A stretch of 26,955 nt of DNA from positions 1 through 26,955 of the IMG/VR virus record IMGVR_UViG_3300013104_000003; one strand, 5' to 3'. Below, in pieces: positions 1,629-9,625 of the stretch. Numbering within the stretch: the stretch's first letter is position 1; each line of letters begins with the position of its first letter. The notes beneath the pieces are model-generated. The model saw only the letters and a list, made by a program, of their open reading frames with translations. It was not told the origin of the DNA and searched no databases. The translations under genes and the position numbers were made by a program. Origin of the DNA: a virus. Taxonomy: Duplodnaviria; Heunggongvirae; Uroviricota; Caudoviricetes.

Positions 1629-3101
1629 CTATTGGGTAAATGGATTAGTTCGTGTTAGATTTGCGGACAACAGTCCAGAAGTGAAGTTTGGAATAATTTG
1701 TTTTTGTGCTAATATCATAAAGCCATCACTGCACACGTCCACAAGATCATCATGACCATTTGCGCCAGACTTTCTTTCTCCCGTGAATGTCTCCAATTCT
1801 TTGTAAAAGAATCCAAGCTCACTGAAAACCTTGTTCTCAAAGTCTGTCCCACAATTCTTCAAGATTCTAATCCCCCCATTCATACACATAGACGCGAAGG
1901 GTCTGAATCTATCAACTTTACTAGAATTCGCACGCATAGTTCTTACAAAGAATCCTTCTGCTGAGATTTCTCTTGCAAGCATTGTTGTTGCAGCTTTCGA
2001 TGCGGGGTTAGGATCAAGTGGTAAAACAATATCTACTTTGCTCCCATCCCTTTGTGCGTTCTCTACAATGAAAGCTTTCCAATCACCAAAACGAATTCGT
2101 GTCCGTTGAACATCGTGGATGAAATAAGTACCATCCTTCATTTTTGAAATCTTAATGCAAGCCGTGTAATCTGGATCATATGAGCTATCAGATGACTTCA
2201 GAGTGCCAGCGACATCATATGCCCTAACAGTCTTAACAATATCACTCCAAGCCGGCTCTTGATCTTCTTCTTTGAACCAGTGGCGTTTTATAAGACCTTG
2301 TCCATCTGGCCTAGCCTCCCAATTCCCGTATAAAAGAATTTCTTTCTCGATACGCGGCAAACCTTGAAGAAAAGCAATATAGCTTTTCTCAATATGTGGG
2401 TTATCGTATACCGATGCGGAAATAAAACGGAAAGAAAGAGGAGTAAGATCGGGGTATCGCTCTTCTAATTCTTCTTTTGTATCTGCCCAAAACATTTCAT
2501 TATCTAGGCGAACAAACCAGCGAATTATACCCTGTTTTGCAGGGTCAGGACGACCAAATAATTCATGACCTTCTGGGTAGAGATACCAATCAACATACTT
2601 CCTAACCCAACTATCTGGGTCTGGGTTCATTGTAGCGCGCATGTTTGGCTTCATATTAGCCTTTGTACGCAAACGAGAAAGAATGTAGTTGAACTGGGAT
2701 TCTTCAAACTGACAAAGTTCCTCCATTACGCAACTGGAGATTTGAGCACCTTGAAAGTTATCTGTGTCATCCACACGTTCGAAATGAGAAAAGAAAATTT
2801 CTGCATCTGAGCTTGTAATAATCTTTAAATCTTTAATTCTTACTCTACAGTCTGGATCTAACAATTTATAAAGTTGTTTTGCTTCGTCCCAAACAGCACC
2901 CGGCTTAAGTAGCATCGGTGTAGTTCGACGTAATGTTAGTCCTCTATAAAGGGGATCGTGCATATATTTGGCGTGATGGGCAAGTCCTGCCCAAGTTTTT
3001 CCTCCGCCAGCCTGACCCCCGTAGAAACAGATGTCCACCCAATCAGGCGTGGACAAAAACATCGCTTGTGGTTTGCTGGCAGGCGCGACTACATTTGTCA
3101 A
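1629..3101 (-). CDS. terL: Terminase large subunit
   Basis: Walker A YGGQAGGGKT, Walker B-like VMEEL, coupling motif ATMNP, C-terminal nuclease RAYDVAG...HDDLVD; TTG start with GAGG RBS. Confidence 0.95.
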   Translation of the reverse strand: MTNVVAPASKPQAMFLSTPDWVDICFYGGQAGGGKTWAGLAHHAKYMHDPLYRGLTLRRTTPMLLKPGAVWDEAKQLYKLLDPDCRVRIKDLKIITSSDAEIFFSHFERVDDTDNFQGAQISSCVMEELCQFEESQFNYILSRLRTKANMKPNMRATMNPDPDSWVRKYVDWYLYPEGHELFGRPDPAKQGIIRWFVRLDNEMFWADTKEELEERYPDLTPLSFRFISASVYDNPHIEKSYIAFLQGLPRIEKEILLYGNWEARPDGQGLIKRHWFKEEDQEPAWSDIVKTVRAYDVAGTLKSSDSSYDPDYTACIKISKMKDGTYFIHDVQRTRIRFGDWKAFIVENAQRDGSKVDIVLPLDPNPASKAATTMLAREISAEGFFVRTMRANSSKVDRFRPFASMCMNGGIRILKNCGTDFENKVFSELGFFYKELETFTGERKSGANGHDDLVDVCSDGFMILAQKQIIPNFTSGLLSANLTRTNPFTQ

Positions 3102-4218
3102 AGACGCTTACCTCAATTTGTTCTATATTGGTTTTAACTTCCAACCACCTCTCTTTGTTTTCGAGAGCGTTAGATACAGAATTTCTGGCCACTCCGTAAA
3201 GATTTGCTAGAAACTTTTGTTCTACAAAACCAGATCGCCACAATATAAGAGCTTCTGTTACATCAACCAGAGAAAATTTTGCTTTGCTGTTATACTTATG
3301 CTTTTCTACATTAAGTAACCTTAAAGTGGTTTGAATTTTATCTCTGTTTTCTTCTCTATTAGACATCCAATCAGCGATATATTCTTGTTCAATATCCTTT
3401 AAAGTCTTATGTAAAGATTTTTCAATTTCTTCAATGTAATAGTCTGAATTATTATTCAAGGCTTTTACAATAAAATCTGGATTTTGTGAGGGATCAAAAT
3501 CATCCGAAAATCTTTCAATCATTGTTTTGAAGTAAGTCCCGCTAAAATAAAGGTCTGAGACTTTTTGTATTTTTGTTGAAAAATCTTTCGGGCCGGTCTT
3601 ATCAGAGCGTTGCCAGAAGTCTTTATATACATGAAAACTCAACCAATCTTTCAACTCACCTTTGAATCGAAAGGCTGGAAAAACTGAACCTATATTTATA
3701 AGAAATGGCTGAATGTCGTCTTGTTTCCTGTTGAATTGAGACATATATTTAGTATTACTCAACTTCCAGTTAATAAGACGTTTTCTGCGTTCTGTTTCCT
3801 TCCGGGTTGCTTTAATCCTTTCCATAACTTCTGGAGGATGTGTCACACCGAACATGGGGTTGTTTTCACCAGAGCATTGTACACTAACAGCTTTAGAATA
3901 CTCTTCACGTAGCTTAGAATAAATTTTAGAATTAATACCTACGTGACTATTGCCTGCGATATCATTTGTCCAACGTGAACTCATGATATGTGCAGCTCTC
4001 ATCAAACTGATGTTTTGAGGATTAGCTATCCACAAGAGCATGTGGGCGATGAAGTGCTCTCTTCCAGAGAAGAGTACAAAATTAGAAGCTTCATTTGTTC
4101 CTCCAATACATACTGGGACAATGTGATGAGCTTCTGTGTAGAAATCTATTTTTGATTTATCAAGACCACGAACTTTAGCTTTTGCTACAAGATCATTATA
4201 AATTTTACTGTAATTCAA
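3043..4218 (-). CDS. Free-standing HNH homing endonuclease with NUMOD3 motif (Mob-like)
   Basis: EAHHIVPVCIGGTNEASNFVLFSGREHFIAHMLLW HNH core; SGENNPMFGVTH NUMOD3-like repeat; overlaps the terL 5' end by 59 nt. Confidence 0.85.
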   Translation of the reverse strand: MNYSKIYNDLVAKAKVRGLDKSKIDFYTEAHHIVPVCIGGTNEASNFVLFSGREHFIAHMLLWIANPQNISLMRAAHIMSSRWTNDIAGNSHVGINSKIYSKLREEYSKAVSVQCSGENNPMFGVTHPPEVMERIKATRKETERRKRLINWKLSNTKYMSQFNRKQDDIQPFLINIGSVFPAFRFKGELKDWLSFHVYKDFWQRSDKTGPKDFSTKIQKVSDLYFSGTYFKTMIERFSDDFDPSQNPDFIVKALNNNSDYYIEEIEKSLHKTLKDIEQEYIADWMSNREENRDKIQTTLRLLNVEKHKYNSKAKFSLVDVTEALILWRSGFVEQKFLANLYGVARNSVSNALENKERWLEVKTNIEQIEVSVFDKCSRACQQTTSDVFVHA

Positions 4219-4820: not shown

Positions 4821-6830
4821 TTAACCAAGCAATACTTCCTGTGCAGATTGGTACGTAAAAACTGGAGTCCCTGTGGTATTTACAGTACGCAATCTTACGT
4901 ACTTACCAGCAGGAATACACCCTGTCAGGTTGGCACTGTTGAGAGTTGCTAAGTTCAGAACACCACCAGCAGATGCACCAGATGTCTGTACAGTTGTGAC
5001 ACCAGTTGTAAACCCAACTTCATTAGCATATTCAAGAACAACGCGACCAGCTTGTCCAGCAAGTAGTGCTGCTGTACAACTAATATCAACAGAATAAGCT
5101 ACCAATGCATCTTGTGTAGCGCTAATTTGAAAAGCTGTATTCAAACTACGTGTAGGATTGGTAAAACTTCTGTTAGTGCCTGCTGTTACGCGACCTTGTG
5201 CATCAGTGGTAATTGTACCATTGTAACTCCCAGCAGTACCAACGTTAGGCATTGAAATAGTGCCCGTTGTTGTAATTGTACCACCACTCAAGCCTGTTCC
5301 TGCTGTAATACTTGTTACCGTACCGCCACTATTGGCATAGTTTGGAACATTAAGAACACCCGTTGTACTGTTATATGTTGCAGCTCCACTTGTCCCTGTG
5401 GTTGTCAAACTAATAGCTGTACGAGCACCCGCTTGGGTGATATAGCTATTAGGGTTTGTTGTTCCGTTATATGGTGTGTAACCTAATGCAGTAGTAATTT
5501 GACCACTTGTAATGGTTGTCAGATATCCTGCTGGGTTTGATGCAAGCGGATAGGCATCTATAATCCCGTAACCTGATAAAGTGGTTGGTGTAGTTGTAAT
5601 CGTTGACCAAGCTTGTGTATGTGCTGATGGTGTAAAAGCAGATGGTTTATTCAATACCTGAGATACACCAGATACTGAGTTCCAATCAGAATTCACTTGT
5701 GCAGCAGGAATACTTGGAAATGTTGCTAAAGATCCGTCACCACGAAGGTACTGTAAAGTTGTACCTGTTGGAGTATTGTACTTAGCATCTAAAGCAGTCT
5801 GCAACCCAATAACATCAGAAATACTGTGCGTATGACCTGACGGTGGGAAGCTTGTTGGTTTGTTAGTAAGATCTGTGTAGCTTCCACTGAACAGTGTAGG
5901 CTTGTTTAAAATCTGACTTACACCACTTACACTGTTCCAATCGCTATTAACTTGGGCTGGAATTACAACATCCCCAAACTGCCCATTAACTGTCAGCACA
6001 CCATCTTGAATGGCTGTCTTGGGAAGTTTATTTGGCGCTGAAAGACTTACGAGTTTATCGCGGATAGCTGCTGCTGTTACTTCAGGGGACAAAGGAAGAC
6101 TTACAAACTCTCCTCGTTGTGTCATCACACTAAAGTAAGGAATACCGCTACTATTACCTTTGATAGCCATTGTATTGGCACGAATTTCAAAGGTGAGCAT
6201 CACACCAGCTGAAAGTGGTACGGGGCTATCTTTAAAATCTACTACGTTATCACCAACAACAAAGTTCATACCCCCTGTTCCTGTAGACCACACAGATTTA
6301 CTAGGAAGATATTTCAATGCTACGTTCACATCAGATTTTGTAATCTTGATTCTAACGTTAGACATTGGGGCAGATGCACGAAATGTAATACTGTTAGTTC
6401 TTGCGTTAAGTGTTGTTGTATAATTGAAAACAAGCGGAGAGGATGTAAGATTTACGCTGTCATCAGCCTGAGCCGTAAACATCCATTCGGCTTCATTGAG
6501 CTGAAAGATTGTAGGAGATAGAGATGCACTTGTACGTGGAACTCCATAATCTATAAGCTGATACATTGCATTATAGAGGTTATTGCGAATACCGACAAAG
6601 CCTGAAGATTCAGACATGGTGATAGCATCACCAAAATCAATAGAGCCAGATTCTACAGAGAACCCACCGGGGGCTAGAAGAGTTCCGTCAGGAAGCATCC
6701 TCATCCCTGTGCCCATCAACTGACCATCAGTATCCTTAACGAAGACTTCTCTCACAGGCATCTCTGCCATCAAATCTTCTACAGATTCTCCACTGGAATT
6801 ATTACCGGGGAAATACGGATGTACAGGCAT
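4821..6830 (-). CDS. Fibre-like virion protein (tail/head fibre or whisker)
   Basis: 669 aa, Thr/Gly/Ser-rich; fibre motifs VLTVNGQFGDVV, QVNSDWN..SG..QILNKP (x2), HTHSISDVIGLQTALDAK, PTTLSGYGIID, ITTALGYTPY, GTVTSITAGTGLSGGTIT; compact C-terminal domain ending YVRLRT..GTP...QEVLL. Confidence 0.75.
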   Translation of the reverse strand: MPVHPYFPGNNSSGESVEDLMAEMPVREVFVKDTDGQLMGTGMRMLPDGTLLAPGGFSVESGSIDFGDAITMSESSGFVGIRNNLYNAMYQLIDYGVPRTSASLSPTIFQLNEAEWMFTAQADDSVNLTSSPLVFNYTTTLNARTNSITFRASAPMSNVRIKITKSDVNVALKYLPSKSVWSTGTGGMNFVVGDNVVDFKDSPVPLSAGVMLTFEIRANTMAIKGNSSGIPYFSVMTQRGEFVSLPLSPEVTAAAIRDKLVSLSAPNKLPKTAIQDGVLTVNGQFGDVVIPAQVNSDWNSVSGVSQILNKPTLFSGSYTDLTNKPTSFPPSGHTHSISDVIGLQTALDAKYNTPTGTTLQYLRGDGSLATFPSIPAAQVNSDWNSVSGVSQVLNKPSAFTPSAHTQAWSTITTTPTTLSGYGIIDAYPLASNPAGYLTTITSGQITTALGYTPYNGTTNPNSYITQAGARTAISLTTTGTSGAATYNSTTGVLNVPNYANSGGTVTSITAGTGLSGGTITTTGTISMPNVGTAGSYNGTITTDAQGRVTAGTNRSFTNPTRSLNTAFQISATQDALVAYSVDISCTAALLAGQAGRVVLEYANEVGFTTGVTTVQTSGASAGGVLNLATLNSANLTGCIPAGKYVRLRTVNTTGTPVFTYQSAQEVLLG
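5643..5957 (-). repeat. Internal 20-codon repeat (5898-5957 and 5643-5702)
   Basis: AQVNSDWNSVSGVSQ(I/V)LNKP; 19/20 aa identical but only 42/60 nt identical. Confidence 0.9.
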
Positions 6831-7096
6831 TATGAATTATCCTGTACGCAAATTTTACCGTTTCCACGAATCCAGCAACCAACTTCCCCAGCATCCACTA
6901 CGTAGAATTGATAGGGTTGAATATAAACGCCATCAGTAGATGTGGATAGGGGCTGTAATGCACTTATTTGCACGTATAGTGCGCTAGTGCTCTTATTTTG
7001 AATAATAATAGAAGTTCCCACTGTGATACCGGAAGAAGTATACACATCGGTAAAGGAACCATTCACTGAAGATATATCAGGAATCGTATTTGCCAC
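6830..7096 (-). CDS. Small beta-rich protein, probable fibre-associated virion protein
   Basis: 88 aa, GTG start, stop overlaps the fibre ATG (translational coupling); IIIQNKS..LYVQ pattern. Confidence 0.7.
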   Translation of the reverse strand: MANTIPDISSVNGSFTDVYTSSGITVGTSIIIQNKSTSALYVQISALQPLSTSTDGVYIQPYQFYVVDAGEVGCWIRGNGKICVQDNS

Positions 7097-7100
7097 TTTA

Positions 7101-7440
7101 ACAATCCTATTTTATTTTTATATTAGGGATTGTCTTGTTCTGAGGAATTATAGCCTGTAGACAGACAACACAGGCTTTTAGTGGGGCAGCCTCGTCTGCT
7201 TTGAAGAAATCAATTATACTTCATTAAATAATTGACTATAGTATAGTTGACTGATGCCACGCTTACCTGCATTCAGTCGTGGAGTCCATAGTGACTCCCT
7301 CTCCGCTCACTAGTCTTTCCTAGCAGTCATTTATTCGCTATCCGCCAGAATAGCTGGGTGAGAACTAGGCAGTTCCCGATACCAAGCCGAAGCCTGATTC
7401 TATGTCACCTAAACACAACATTTAGGTTGAGATGTTTAGA
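7101..7440 (-). ncRNA. Putative structured non-coding RNA (C)
   Basis: About 11 back-to-back hairpins including a C(UUCG)G tetraloop (7383-7396); stem irregularities read as G-U wobbles on the minus strand; no ORF. Confidence 0.6.
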
Positions 7441-7454
7441 TAATGTAACAAATG

Positions 7455-7859
7455 TTACTCATCATCTTCGTCTGGAGTAAACACCAAACTCAGACGTGGA
7501 CGCAATTCACTTTTAATCTCTTCAGGAGTCTGCTCTTCAGGCTCACGCTTACCTTCCATACGAGCCTTGAAGTTAGAGATTTCATCGGCGTTTGCAGCCT
7601 TCTCAACACTTACAATGGAATTGATAACCCATTTAGCACTTGCTACAGAATCAGCGTTCACTTCTTCATTTTTTAGGCTTTTATCAATAAGCGCAAGGGC
7701 AATATCTTCACGAGTACGAAGCTTATCTGCAAGTTCACGAAGTTGAGACTTTTTAATACGAACCTTTGAATTTCCTTTGGTGTTACGGTTACTACGTTCA
7801 CCTTGGAACTGTGTTTCTTTCTGCTTTGCAGTTTGTTTATCTTTTGTCAAACCTGCCAT
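7455..7859 (-). CDS. Putative terminase small subunit
   Basis: 134 aa; basic N-terminus with QFQGERSNRNTKG resembling the F..G.SGNP.G motif of TerS proteins; helical core; RPRLSL-acidic C-terminus; upstream of terL on the same strand. Confidence 0.55.
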   Translation of the reverse strand: MAGLTKDKQTAKQKETQFQGERSNRNTKGNSKVRIKKSQLRELADKLRTREDIALALIDKSLKNEEVNADSVASAKWVINSIVSVEKAANADEISNFKARMEGKREPEEQTPEEIKSELRPRLSLVFTPDEDDE

Positions 7860-8217: not shown

Positions 8218-8247
8218 AGTATAACATCCATATATCTATTTTGTCAA
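8218..8247 (-). promoter_or_regulatory. Sigma70-like promoter TTGACA-N18-TATACT with extended -10 (TG)
   Basis: Read directly: ttgacaaaatagatatatggatgttatact. Confidence 0.8.
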
Positions 8248-8274: not shown

Positions 8275-8805
8275 CTAATCAAAATACGAATATTCTTCTT
8301 GAAGCTCTGATAATTGATCCATAACTTGATTGTAGCGCATCTTAGACATAAAGTCGTCTTGACAAGAATTGTACTTTTTGTTGTTGCAAGACTTGCAAAG
8401 CAACTGAAGATTTTTCACAGAATTTGAAGAAATTATTCCTACTGGTCGGATATGATCAATTTCGAAGGCTACATCATCAAAAGATACAAAACATGCTGCG
8501 CATTCATTGCTCTGAATTTCTAACAGATATCGAATGTCTTCTGGTTTGAAGTTTTCAATTTCTTCATGTCCTTGTTTTGAAAATCTAGCTTTTGCAAAAT
8601 AATTCCGCTTCTTGATCCGTTCGTCAAAATTATCTTCCGTCAGGTAAGAATTTCTTTCTTCATGCCATTCTCGAAGTCTTTTACTACGTTCGATAGATTT
8701 TGTATCGCTTTTAAACTCTTCGTTATATTCAGAGATACAGTCTTTACATCGTCCGCTGTTTGTGTGCTCTGAATAGTGACCTTTACTGCATTCTTTTAGT
8801 TCCAC
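8275..8805 (-). CDS. HNH endonuclease (Zn-binding, McrA/gp74-like)
   Basis: CAAC...EIDHIRPV...NSVKNLQLLCKSCNNKK; N-terminal C..GH...RC..C finger; GTG start with AGGTG RBS. Confidence 0.85.
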   Translation of the reverse strand: MELKECSKGHYSEHTNSGRCKDCISEYNEEFKSDTKSIERSKRLREWHEERNSYLTEDNFDERIKKRNYFAKARFSKQGHEEIENFKPEDIRYLLEIQSNECAACFVSFDDVAFEIDHIRPVGIISSNSVKNLQLLCKSCNNKKYNSCQDDFMSKMRYNQVMDQLSELQEEYSYFD

Positions 8806-9149: not shown

Positions 9150-9625
9150 TACACTTCCAACTGAGTTCAGATAAGAAACTTCAGATAAAGAAAAGCCTTA
9201 CCCAGCCATACAGATTTAACAATCTGCCTAAGACTGAGCACTGCTCCTTATCTGATAGCCTTATCTGCCTCTATCCGTAAAGATAGTTTCTTCCAACTTG
9301 AGACGAGATTAAGAGAATGACTTTTCAATCATTCTACGGTCTACACGGATCACATAGCCGCCTTCAGGACAATGACACTAATAACGCATTGTCTCACCAC
9401 ATAGCATATCGCACAGAGTTATTAGCTCTGTCAGGGAGGTAGTGGTTTTCAGAATACCTTGTTGACTTTCCCATCACTCACAGTCGTCAACTTATTCAGA
9501 TTGTTGCTGCCATCTCGTATAGGAAGCTTTAGCCACCACACTAACCGACCAACAATCTATATCTACTGATTCACCGTAGCCGCTAGAAATCTCGAATGTC
9601 GTTGCCGTTAGATGAGATTTCAATA
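9150..9625 (-). ncRNA. Putative large multi-domain structured RNA (A)
   Basis: At least 9 helices plus long-range 7-bp complementarities; GAAA tetraloop and G-U wobbles on the minus strand; own promoter directly upstream; no ORF. Confidence 0.65.

What the first reader, a model, noticed from the sequence alone, without database searches (positions are those of the whole stretch)
7101..7440. RNA C: 340 nt of wall-to-wall hairpins with a cUUCGg loop downstream of the putative terS
Seen (minus strand): stems at 7407-7427, 7383-7396 (CAGGC-UUCG-GCUUG), 7360-7377, 7337-7354, 7310-7323 (CUAG-GAAAGA-CUAG), 7281-7298, 7249-7278, 7211-7234, 7186-7199, 7152-7176 and 7101-7133. Three stems contain G-U pairs that would be mismatches on the plus strand. 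No ORF and no tRNA cloverleaf. Inference: a functional ncRNA processed from the terS transcript; I cannot assign it to a known family.
Basis: partly seen in the sequence, partly recalled or inferred. Interest (0 to 1): 0.7.

Follow-up and report, generated by a model that had tools for sequence, protein, structure and literature searches.

The report
New structured RNA in phage tRNA island
The hairpin-packed gap is real: about 170 nt of it is a six-hairpin RNA of an undescribed family, conserved with compensatory mutations in some 40 related uncultured phages. There it sits among tRNA genes. The last 140 nt is a separate structured leader of the next gene.

Summary
Folding energy alone is unremarkable (z -2.3 for 340 nt, -1.6 for the core, and similar on the plus strand).

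Comparative evidence is decisive. The same hairpins recur downstream of the same 134-aa gene in 43 of 48 distinct related phage contigs, with many two-sided compensatory changes, invariant loops, and 68 G-U cells against 7 A-C cells. The selected structure is therefore an RNA on the gene-sense strand.

The 340 nt is not one RNA but a mosaic:
- a lineage-specific hairpin (7408-7440);
- module A (7334-7405; P1-P3; loops UGCCUAG and UCUGGCGG);
- module B (7237-7332; P4-P6);
- module C (7101-7235), the leader of the 88-aa gene, with a conserved hairpin that hides its ribosome-binding site.

In relatives, module A starts directly after the CCA of tRNA-Thr. Module B and a tRNA-Met gene occupy the same slot but never occur together. 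Rfam 15 has no match, and ARAGORN finds no tRNA in the whole phage genome.

My best reading is a new family of phage tRNA-island small RNAs, a positional analogue of T4 stable RNAs C and D. It is probably cut out of the transcript and acts as a protein-binding scaffold. That function is inferred, not shown.

The parts
7408..7440 (-). 5' hairpin (CUAAACA...UGUUUAG) followed by GGUGACAUAGAAU. A lineage-specific spacer between the stop codon of the 134-aa gene and module A.
   Evidence: Folded. Shared only with L269. Most relatives lack it and start module A at or near the stop codon.
7334..7405 (-). Module A, a three-hairpin RNA domain: P1 7381-7398 (cUUCGg), J1/2 AUC, P2 7360-7377 (loop UGCCUA, closed by C-G), P3 7337-7354 (loop UCUGGCGG).
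   Evidence: The covariance model R1 scores 75 bits on W (which was in the training set) and 44-78 bits on 37 further loci. P1 is 94.7% paired. The five inner pairs of P3 are paired in all sequences except one gapped cell, and each uses 3-4 Watson-Crick pair types. P2 forms in all 26 sequences with 12 or more different stems. P1 loops swap among UNCG and GNRA tetraloops.
7326..7332 (-). Conserved linker AAAUGAC (J3/4).
   Evidence: Invariant in alignment A1. Variants AAAUGGC, AAAUGC and AAAUGUC occur in others. The AUG opens frames of different length and phase in different phages, so it is not coding (read).
7308..7325 (-). P4 hairpin with loop GAAAGA. An optional sub-module.
   Evidence: Fifteen relatives fold the same hairpin with about nine different stems. 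It is absent in L263 and replaced by other hairpins in L267, L261 and L269.
7237..7306 (-). Core of module B, flavour B2: purine linker GCGGAGAG 7299-7306; P5 7281-7298; ACG; P6 7250-7277 (outer stem, bulged A, inner UGC/GCA, loop AGG..GUG); tail CAACUAUACUAUA 7237-7249.
   Evidence: Ten B2 sequences fold identically, with 7 different P5 stems and 5 different P6 outer stems. In the sister flavour B1 (23 sequences), 14 of 16 pairs show two-sided changes.
7210..7235 (-). Module C, hairpin C1 (UCAAUUAU...AUAAUUGA).
   Evidence: The stem is replaced by unrelated but complementary sequences, including G-U pairs, in L014, L015, L269 and L018.
7152..7199 (-). Module C, highly conserved block with two mutually exclusive foldings: AGGCU 7188-7192 with AGCCU 7172-7176, or AGCCUGU 7170-7176 with ACAGGCU 7152-7158. 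It ends in UAUAAU.
   Evidence: About 80% identical to L011 and nearly identical in L256, L271, L015, L014, L269 and L018. One compensatory G-C to A-U change in the second hairpin.
7101..7133 (-). Module C, hairpin ACAAUCC...GGAUUGU with an A/U-rich loop. Its 3' arm holds the Shine-Dalgarno AGGA (7105-7108) of the 88-aa gene, whose GTG start is at 7094-7096.
   Evidence: The stem changes to ACACCU/AGGUGU in L256, L014 and L018 while keeping its position before the start codon. ORF coordinates.
7455..7859 (-). 134-aa gene (p134) that precedes the RNA in almost every relative. Basic N-terminus, helical, no known family.
   Evidence: 173 homologues, all unnamed. tblastn places it upstream of module A in the relatives. 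No Pfam, PHROG, PDB or fold match.

Best explanation
The gap between the 134-aa and 88-aa genes is a mosaic of conserved RNA modules on the gene-sense (minus) strand.

Modules A (P1-P3) and B (P4-P6), about 170 nt in all (7237-7405), form a six-hairpin RNA. Its loops and linkers are near-invariant: CUAG/UGCCUAG, UCUGGCGG, AAAUGAC, GAAAGA, GYGGAGAR and AGG..GUGG. It belongs to an undescribed family carried by a clade of roughly 80-93 kb uncultured myovirus-like phages. The nearest cultured relatives by large terminase are Pseudomonas phages vB_PsaM_M1 and phiPMW.

In those phages the locus is a tRNA island. Module A begins right after the CCA of tRNA-Thr or right after the stop codon of the 134-aa gene. 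Module B occupies the slot that a tRNA-Met gene fills in other members.

Inferred mechanism:
- The RNA is transcribed with the 134-aa gene.
- The host enzymes that process the neighbouring tRNAs and A/U-rich linkers cut it free.
- It persists as one or two stable small RNAs.
- Its invariant loops and purine linker are contact surfaces for a protein. The always-adjacent basic 134-aa protein is the first candidate, and a host factor the second.
- The complementary loops L2 and L3 probably kiss, through CUGCC with GGCGG or CUAG with CUGG.

Module C (7101-7235) is a separate unit. It is the structured 5' leader of the 88-aa gene, with alternative hairpins and a hairpin that sequesters the ribosome-binding site.

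Shown: conservation, structure, strand, modularity and tRNA context. Inferred: excision, stability, protein binding and loop kissing.
For: Homologues: nhmmer and pattern scans found the element downstream of p134 homologues. By my count from the table together, 43 of 48 distinct regions carry module A and/or B.

Structure:
- P1 and P3 covariation 0.60-0.63 against 0.24-0.27 in shuffles, 0 of 500.
- P5 and P6 covariation 0.786 against 0.278, 0 of 500, with 14 of 16 pairs compensated.
- P2, P4 and the B2-flavour P5 and P6 fold in every sequence with many different stems.

RNA rather than DNA: 68 G-U cells against 7 A-C cells. P1 is capped by UNCG or GNRA tetraloops that swap between phages.

tRNA context:
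- tRNA-Thr-CCA is followed at once by module A in L266, L267 and L268.
- Module A is followed by tRNA-Met after 10-16 nt in L010, L256 and L287, and after about 80-100 nt in L011 and L311.
- Module A is followed by module B in 36 regions, and never by both module B and tRNA-Met.

Co-transcription: in L016, L018 and L075 the conserved start AAAGAAUC overlaps the p134 stop codon.

Not a known family: Rfam has no hit on W or on ten relatives apart from their tRNAs.

Module C: it travels with the 88-aa gene and keeps its Shine-Dalgarno hairpin through compensatory changes.
Against: There is no expression or end-mapping data, so excision and stability are unproven.

W's own genome has no tRNA at all. 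Processing here cannot rely on flanking tRNAs.

No intrinsic terminator or convincing promoter bounds the element. It could therefore act only in cis, as a 3'- or 5'-UTR.

Folding energy is not exceptional.

The proposed loop-loop pairing involves near-invariant bases, so covariation cannot test it. Some variants lack UGCC in L2.

Nothing shows that the 134-aa protein binds RNA. Its model is of low confidence (pLDDT 66) and matches no fold.
Confidence: 0.5

Rival explanations
1. A purely cis-acting mRNA element. Modules A and B would be a structured 3'-UTR of the 134-aa gene or an upstream leader of the late operon. They would stabilise the transcript against exonucleases, direct RNase cleavage between early and late parts, or modify RNA polymerase for read-through, as the put RNAs of phage HK022 do (that comparison is from my own knowledge). 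No free small RNA would be involved.
For: The element starts at the stop codon of p134 in several phages. No promoter or terminator of its own is seen. It lies just upstream of a long same-strand block holding the 88-aa gene, fibre, terminase and portal. Module C next to it is clearly a cis leader.
Against: Simple stabilisers do not need six hairpins with invariant loops. Module B can be exchanged for a tRNA gene, and tRNA-Thr can be inserted before module A, without loss of the rest. That fits discrete RNA genes in a processing array better than one UTR. Downstream genes differ between contigs that share A and B.
Confidence: 0.28
2. A tRNA surrogate or decoy. Module B, alone or with A, would stand in for a tRNA in the tRNA-Met slot. 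It could be a degenerate tRNA descendant, or a mimic that engages tRNA-binding host enzymes or anti-phage tRNA nucleases.
For: Module B and tRNA-Met are mutually exclusive at the same position between modules A and C. Module A abuts tRNA 3' ends. T4 carries two stable RNAs with tRNA-like parts directly 3' of tRNA-Arg.
Against: ARAGORN and the Rfam tRNA model do not recognise A or B in W or in ten relatives. There is no closing acceptor-like helix, no T-arm GGUUCGAAUCC, and no CCA end (read).
Confidence: 0.1
3. A self-cleaving ribozyme that trims the transcript, for example to make the CCA 3' end of the upstream tRNA.
For: Module A begins 0-2 nt after the CCA of tRNA-Thr in L264, L266, L267 and L268. 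Its core loops are invariant.
Against: No Rfam ribozyme family matches at E<=10. Most members, W included, have no upstream tRNA. The fold is a row of simple hairpins without the nested pseudoknots or junction cores of known self-cleavers.
Confidence: 0.05
4. A packaging RNA in the manner of phi29 pRNA. Complementary loops would let copies interlock into a ring on the portal or terminase.
For: L2 (CUGCC or the palindromic CUAG) and L3 (GGCGG or CUGG) are complementary (read).
Against: There is no 5'/3' closing helix like the pRNA A-helix. The loops are invariant rather than co-varying between phages. The phage has an ordinary large terminase. The terS assignment is unsupported. The Rfam search returned no hit of any family.
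Confidence: 0.03
5. A DNA-level element such as a pac site, an origin or a nuclease target, whose inverted repeats only look like RNA hairpins.
For: Dense inverted repeats lie next to a possible small terminase gene and homing nucleases.
Against: G-U cells outnumber A-C cells 68 to 7. RNA-type tetraloops cap P1. Compensatory changes keep pairing on one strand only.
Confidence: 0.02

Closest known systems
Phage T4 small stable RNAs species 1 (rnaC, 139 nt) and species 2 (rnaD, 119 nt)
   Same: They are small structured RNAs of unknown function encoded inside a phage tRNA cluster. They lie directly 3' of a tRNA (tRNA-Arg, then rnaD, then rnaC with 1-6 nt spacers), next to a homing endonuclease gene. 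Sizes and the tandem arrangement resemble modules A and B after tRNA-Thr in L266-L268.
   Different: No sequence or structure homology: R1 scores 6.7 bits, E 4.2, on the T4 region. The T4 RNAs carry tRNA-like parts, namely a T-arm CCGGGUUCGAAUCCCGG in rnaC and a ...CACCA end in rnaD. Modules A and B have neither. W has no tRNA genes at all.
phi29-family pRNA (packaging RNA)
   Same: A phage-encoded multi-helix RNA of about 120-174 nt with two loops complementary to each other (from my own knowledge of pRNA). It lies near packaging genes.
   Different: pRNA has a paired 5'/3' helix and a three-way junction, and its loops co-vary between phages. It occurs in protein-primed Bacillus podoviruses without a small terminase. 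Modules A and B form a linear row of hairpins with invariant loops, in a myovirus-like genome with a standard large terminase.
Bacterial and phage Y-RNA-like RNAs (YrlA) (PMC4201824)
   Same: Structured, modular small RNAs, often next to tRNA genes and found in phages. They act as protein scaffolds.
   Different: YrlA has a tRNA-like domain and comes with a Ro60 (TROVE) gene. The genome has no TROVE or RtcB gene, and modules A and B have no tRNA-like domain.
GOLLD and ROOL large phage-associated RNAs (PMC2864571 and Rfam)
   Same: Orphan structured RNAs of unknown function, frequently in phages and adjacent to tRNA genes.
   Different: They are much larger (roughly 500-800 nt). Rfam returned no hit of any family here.

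Membership tests
Any Rfam 15 family | Covariance-model score at or near the family's gathering threshold | tested here: not met
   No hit at gathering scores in the whole window. At E<=10 on 6900-7600 there were only three chance-level hits of 14-16 bits. Ten relatives gave only their tRNAs.
tRNA or tRNA pseudogene | Cloverleaf with acceptor stem, T-arm and anticodon loop | tested here: not met
   ARAGORN finds none in the window or the genome. The Rfam tRNA model is silent on modules A and B in relatives while detecting their true tRNAs.
T4-type stable RNAs of the tRNA cluster (rnaC/rnaD) | Encoded directly 3' of a tRNA within a phage tRNA operon | tested here: inconclusive
   Met in relatives L264 and L266-L268 (module A follows CCA). 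Not met in W, which has no tRNA.
T4-type stable RNAs of the tRNA cluster (rnaC/rnaD) | Sequence or structure homology to T4 rnaC/rnaD, with tRNA-like T-arm or CCA terminus | tested here: not met
   R1 scores 6.7 bits on the T4 locus. No T-arm or CCA motif in modules A or B.
T4-type stable RNAs of the tRNA cluster (rnaC/rnaD) | Accumulates as a discrete, stable processed RNA | not testable with these tools
   No RNA run was listed for this sequence.
phi29 pRNA | Two loops with Watson-Crick complementarity that mediate intermolecular ring formation | tested here: inconclusive
   L2 and L3 are complementary over 4-5 nt. Both are near-invariant, so there is no covariation, and intra- versus intermolecular pairing cannot be told apart.
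phi29 pRNA | Paired 5'/3' helix and three-way junction | tested here: not met
   No conserved closing helix was found in 34 module-B or 24 module-A sequences.
Y RNA / YrlA | Co-occurring Ro60 (TROVE) gene and a tRNA-like domain | tested here: not met
   PF05731 is absent from the complete genome, with controls positive. No tRNA-like domain.
Riboswitch or leader with aptamer plus expression platform | Aptamer obligatorily coupled to a downstream expression platform and gene | tested here: not met
   Modules A and B are followed by module C in only some contigs. Module C also follows tRNA-Met directly. Downstream genes differ.
Small terminase (for the neighbouring 134-aa protein) | Match to a terminase small-subunit family or fold | tested here: not met
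   No PHROG or Pfam hit. No PDB sequence or Foldseek match. Only a feature-level Atlas lead to DUF5681.

The most novel reading that the evidence does not exclude
Modules A and B, together with the invariably adjacent basic 134-aa protein, form a previously unknown phage ribonucleoprotein. The RNA is released by the tRNA-processing machinery. It uses its invariant, mutually complementary loops to fold or oligomerise. It then performs a job that a tRNA gene can replace or compete with in sister phages, for example decoying or titrating a host tRNA-directed enzyme or defence nuclease, or assisting genome packaging.
Probability: 0.15. Interest if true: 0.85.

Novelty: new variant of a known kind. 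Interest (0 to 1): 0.62.

Why it matters
Phage tRNA clusters are under active study as counter-measures to host tRNA-targeting defences and as codon-usage tools. Little is known about the non-tRNA RNAs embedded in them. As far as I know, T4's RNAs C and D still have no assigned function decades after their discovery.

This locus gives a second, unrelated and much better constrained example:
- a covariation-proven fold;
- invariant loops that mark likely contact sites;
- a fixed protein neighbour;
- natural 'swap experiments', in which module B is exchanged for tRNA-Met, P1 or P4 is lost, or a tRNA is inserted before module A.

Those swaps define module boundaries and make clear predictions for Northern blots, end mapping and pull-downs. 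The locus also shows how a phage that has lost every tRNA gene keeps the RNA island, which argues that these RNAs have a function of their own.

Tried and rejected
Database and sequence searches that found nothing:
- Rfam at gathering and at permissive thresholds on W and on ten relatives: nothing but tRNAs.
- blastn of W and of two relatives' elements against 50,697 cultured-phage records: no match. Only vB_PsaM_M1 has a partial copy, with P1, P2 and P4. phiPMW has none.
- Sequencing-run search for RNA holders: none was listed.
- Looser patterns gave mostly chance matches.

Resemblances recalled from memory and set aside:
- RNase P RNA (GGAAAG, AAUGAC): not supported by architecture or by Rfam.
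- E. coli 5S rRNA (CUGGCGG, GGGAACUGCC, AUGGUAGUGUGGG). The order of the motifs is not a permutation of 5S. The 5S-like strings sit in loops or in stems that vary in other phages. Rfam returned no hit of any family.
- An SP6-promoter-like string (UUUAGGUGACAUAGAA) before module A. It is conserved only in L269, and no T7-like polymerase gene was found. That search's control genomes also lacked the family.

Other ideas tested and dropped:
- A promoter role for the tail CAACUAUACUAUA: only two sites in the genome match the degenerate motif.
- A small ORF from the AUG in AAAUGAC: the frame and length are not conserved.
- Antisense targets of the loops within the phage genome: no enrichment.
- A closing helix or long-range pairing for modules A and B: none found by eye or by RNAalifold.
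- Structure prediction and fold search of the 134-aa protein: low confidence and no match.

Full report
CONTEXT

The window is the first 26,955 nt of a complete 90,955-nt phage record with terminal repeats. The large terminase (1629-3101, minus strand) is 49% identical to that of Pseudomonas phage vB_PsaM_M1 and 44% to that of phiPMW.

From about 9660 down to 127, all genes lie on the minus strand, in this order:
- a 77-aa ORF;
- an HNH nuclease;
- a second non-coding stretch (RNA B);
- a 134-aa gene, here called p134 (7455-7859);
- the gap in question (7097-7454);
- an 88-aa gene of phrog_4770 (6830-7096);
- a 669-aa fibre-like protein;
- a 122-aa ORF;
- a homing endonuclease;
- the large terminase;
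- the portal.

The genome has no tRNA gene.

THE OBSERVATION

There is no tRNA, no Rfam family and no meaningful ORF.

Thermodynamics alone would not convince anyone. The z-score is -2.32 for the 340 nt on the minus strand and -2.06 on the plus strand. It is -1.61 for the 172-nt core.

RELATIVES

A tblastn-confirmed search with p134 gave nine viral contigs. nhmmer then showed that positions 52-157 of the gap align with the DNA just downstream of p134 in two of them. It also showed that positions 209-350 align with DNA just upstream of the 88-aa gene homologue in another. The first alignment already showed stems changing on both sides while their loops stayed fixed.

Further loci came from pattern scans built from those loops, profile searches, a covariance model (R1), and scans for more p134 loci in metagenomes and viral contigs. 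The result was 48 distinct p134-downstream regions. By my count from the table, 43 of them carry the element.

No cultured phage in the 50,697-record collection matches. The one exception is a partial copy in vB_PsaM_M1, upstream of its tRNA-Pro/Asn/Thr cluster.

ANATOMY: FOUR MODULES

The 340 nt is a mosaic.

1. 7408-7440: a hairpin shared only with L269.

2. Module A, 7334-7405:
   - P1 (7381-7398) has a conserved base (A-U, Y-G, Y-G, A-U). Its cap swaps among UUCG, CUCG, UGCG, GAAA, GUAA and GCAA in different phages.
   - P2 (7360-7377) presents UGCCUA.
   - P3 (7337-7354) presents UCUGGCGG.

3. Module B, 7237-7332:
   - linker AAAUGAC;
   - P4 (7308-7325, loop GAAAGA);
   - purine linker GCGGAGAG;
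   - P5 (7281-7298);
   - P6 (7250-7277), with a bulge, a 3-bp inner stem and an apical loop AGG..GUG;
   - tail CAACUAUACUAUA.
   Two flavours exist. B2 is found in W and nine others. B1 is found in 23 others and has AGAG after P5 and often AAUCUUG in the P5 loop.

4. Module C, 7101-7235:
   - a variable-sequence hairpin (7210-7235);
   - a nearly invariant block with two mutually exclusive hairpins (7152-7199);
   - a hairpin (7101-7133) whose 3' arm contains the AGGA that lies 8 nt before the GTG start of the 88-aa gene.

STATISTICAL SUPPORT

P1 and P3 (24-29 sequences):
- P1 is 94.7% paired.
- The five inner pairs of P3 are paired in every sequence apart from one gapped cell. Each uses three or four Watson-Crick pair types.
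- Covariation is 0.60-0.63 against 0.24-0.27 in shuffles (0 of 500) and 0.06-0.19 when partners are slid.

P2 is mis-registered by MAFFT and by the model, because its stem length varies. Folded one sequence at a time, all 26 sequences give a hairpin around the conserved loop, with at least twelve different stems.

P5 and P6 in flavour B1 (23 sequences):
- 91.5% of cells are paired, against 42-49% when slid.
- 14 of 16 pairs have two-sided changes.
- Covariation is 0.786 against 0.278 in shuffles (0 of 500).

In flavour B2, which includes W, ten sequences fold identically. They show seven different P5 stems, five different outer P6 stems, and inner UGC/GCA or GGC/GCC pairs. P4 folds in 15 sequences with about nine different stems.

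Across P1, P3, P5 and P6 there are 68 G-U cells and 7 A-C cells. Selection therefore acts on the RNA of the gene-sense strand, not on duplex DNA or on the opposite strand.

THE tRNA CONTEXT

In relatives the locus is a tRNA island:
- tRNAs lie upstream of p134 in many contigs.
- In L266, L267 and L268 a tRNA-Thr sits between p134 and module A, and module A starts within 0-2 nt of its CCA. L264 has a tRNA-like CCA-ending sequence at that place.
- In L010, L256 and L287, module A is followed after 10-16 nt by a tRNA-Met(CAU) gene. In L011 and L311 the spacer is about 80-100 nt.
- In 36 other regions module A is followed by module B. No region has both.
- L256 reads A, tRNA-Met, C. W reads A, B, C. 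The flanks are nearly identical.

Modules also occur alone, duplicated or truncated:
- a second copy of B in L018;
- B without a recognisable A in L291, and with only a degenerate A (21 bits) in L006;
- A without P1 in seven contigs;
- P4 missing or replaced;
- an extra module of about 95 nt inserted before P1 in L269, L015 and L272.

This is the behaviour of separate RNA cassettes in a processing array. The presence of homing nucleases in the island is consistent with cassette shuffling, although that link is an inference.

WHAT IT IS NOT

- It is not a tRNA or a tRNA pseudogene by ARAGORN or by the Rfam tRNA model.
- It is not any Rfam family.
- It is not homologous to T4 rnaC or rnaD. Those RNAs occupy a strikingly similar position directly 3' of tRNA-Arg, but they carry a T-arm or a CCA end and score 6.7 bits with R1.
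- It is not a Y-RNA system, because the genome has no Ro60 or RtcB gene.
- It is not coding. The AUG in AAAUGAC opens frames of differing phase and length.
- The similarities I recalled to RNase P RNA, E. coli 5S rRNA and the SP6 promoter did not survive inspection or Rfam (details under Tried and rejected).

THE NEIGHBOURING PROTEIN

p134 has 173 homologues, none of them named. One lies on an 83.8-kb contig in a Pseudomonas sp. assembly.

It has a lysine- and arginine-rich N-terminus with invariant S, N and R residues. Its predicted structure is helical: two short helices followed by a 35-residue helix, at pLDDT 66.

There is no Pfam, PHROG, PDB-sequence or Foldseek match. The only lead is a weak Atlas feature match to clusters that carry DUF5681.

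What is solid is the linkage. The RNA follows this gene in nearly every member, and in some it starts at the gene's stop codon.

HOW IT MOST LIKELY WORKS

Shown:
- a conserved, strand-specific, modular structured RNA with invariant single-stranded loops and linkers;
- embedded where sister phages keep tRNAs.

Inferred:
- It is transcribed with p134. W has a strong sigma-70-like promoter at 8218-8247.
- It is released by the endonucleases that process tRNA precursors and A/U-rich linkers, and it accumulates as one or two stable RNAs.
- The invariant elements (CUAG, CUGGCGG, AAAUGAC, GAAAGA, GYGGAGAR, AGG..GUGG) are too many and too constant for mere stability. They suggest recognition by a protein and/or tertiary contacts.
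- L2 and L3 can pair, through CUGCC with GGCGG or through CUAG with CUGG. CUAG is also self-complementary.
- The first candidate partner is p134.

I put about 0.95 on 'real structured RNA family'. I put about 0.5 on 'discrete stable RNA acting as a scaffold' and about 0.2 on 'partner is p134'. The main rival, at about 0.28, is a purely cis-acting UTR element.

Module C is best read as the translational leader of the 88-aa gene. Its ribosome-binding-site hairpin is maintained by compensatory changes.

NOVELTY

The kind of element, a non-tRNA stable RNA riding in a phage tRNA operon, has been known since T4. This family is unrelated in sequence and fold to the T4 RNAs and matches no family in Rfam 15. 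It also shows features not described for the T4 RNAs:
- hairpin-row architecture with invariant complementary loops;
- a fixed protein neighbour;
- slot-sharing with tRNA-Met;
- persistence in a phage that has lost all tRNAs.

I rate it a new variant of a known kind, with a modest chance that it is something categorically new.

Noticed in passing
It is strongly conserved as DNA in three relatives: L267:2981-3403 (E 4e-77), L318:191-623 and L015:1-271. There is no Rfam hit.
   Followed up: partly
It is partly conserved in L018, L271 and L003. One piece of it (positions 75-176 of the stretch) recurs downstream of p134, just before module A, in L306, L286 and L311. Modules of this island evidently move around.
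   Followed up: partly
L269:~290-385, L015:~5095-5185, also L272 and L308: A further conserved module of about 95 nt lies between AGAAU and P1 of module A. It is closed by UUUGACAAG/CUUGUCAAA and is absent from W. A related block (..CGGUAGGCUUUAAAUGGAGCGAGUACUCCCAGCUACAAACC) precedes module A in L010 and L256.
   Followed up: no
L020:~9195-9330, L018:4382-4490, L002:4825-4900: A third flavour of module B follows P4 in these loci: GUWWGCAGAAK, then CCGUUAUGAA, then a hairpin, then a second CUGCCUWG-AAAAUG motif. It reuses the loop and linker words of module A.
   Followed up: no
whole genome G000 (90,955 nt): The phage has no tRNA gene, although most close relatives carry 1-6 tRNAs around the same 134-aa gene. 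The RNA island is kept after the tRNAs are lost.
   Followed up: yes
window 3043-4218 and 8275-8805 (minus strand): Two nuclease genes flank the island. One is a homing endonuclease (phrog_655) that overlaps the start of the large terminase gene by about 58 nt, as in vB_PsaM_M1. The other is an HNH or endonuclease VII-like gene between RNA A and RNA B. T4 likewise has segB inside its tRNA cluster.
   Followed up: no
L011:1589-1678: ARAGORN calls a 90-nt tRNA-Met(CAU) with the anticodon at position 38. It is longer than normal and may carry an insertion or an intron.
   Followed up: no
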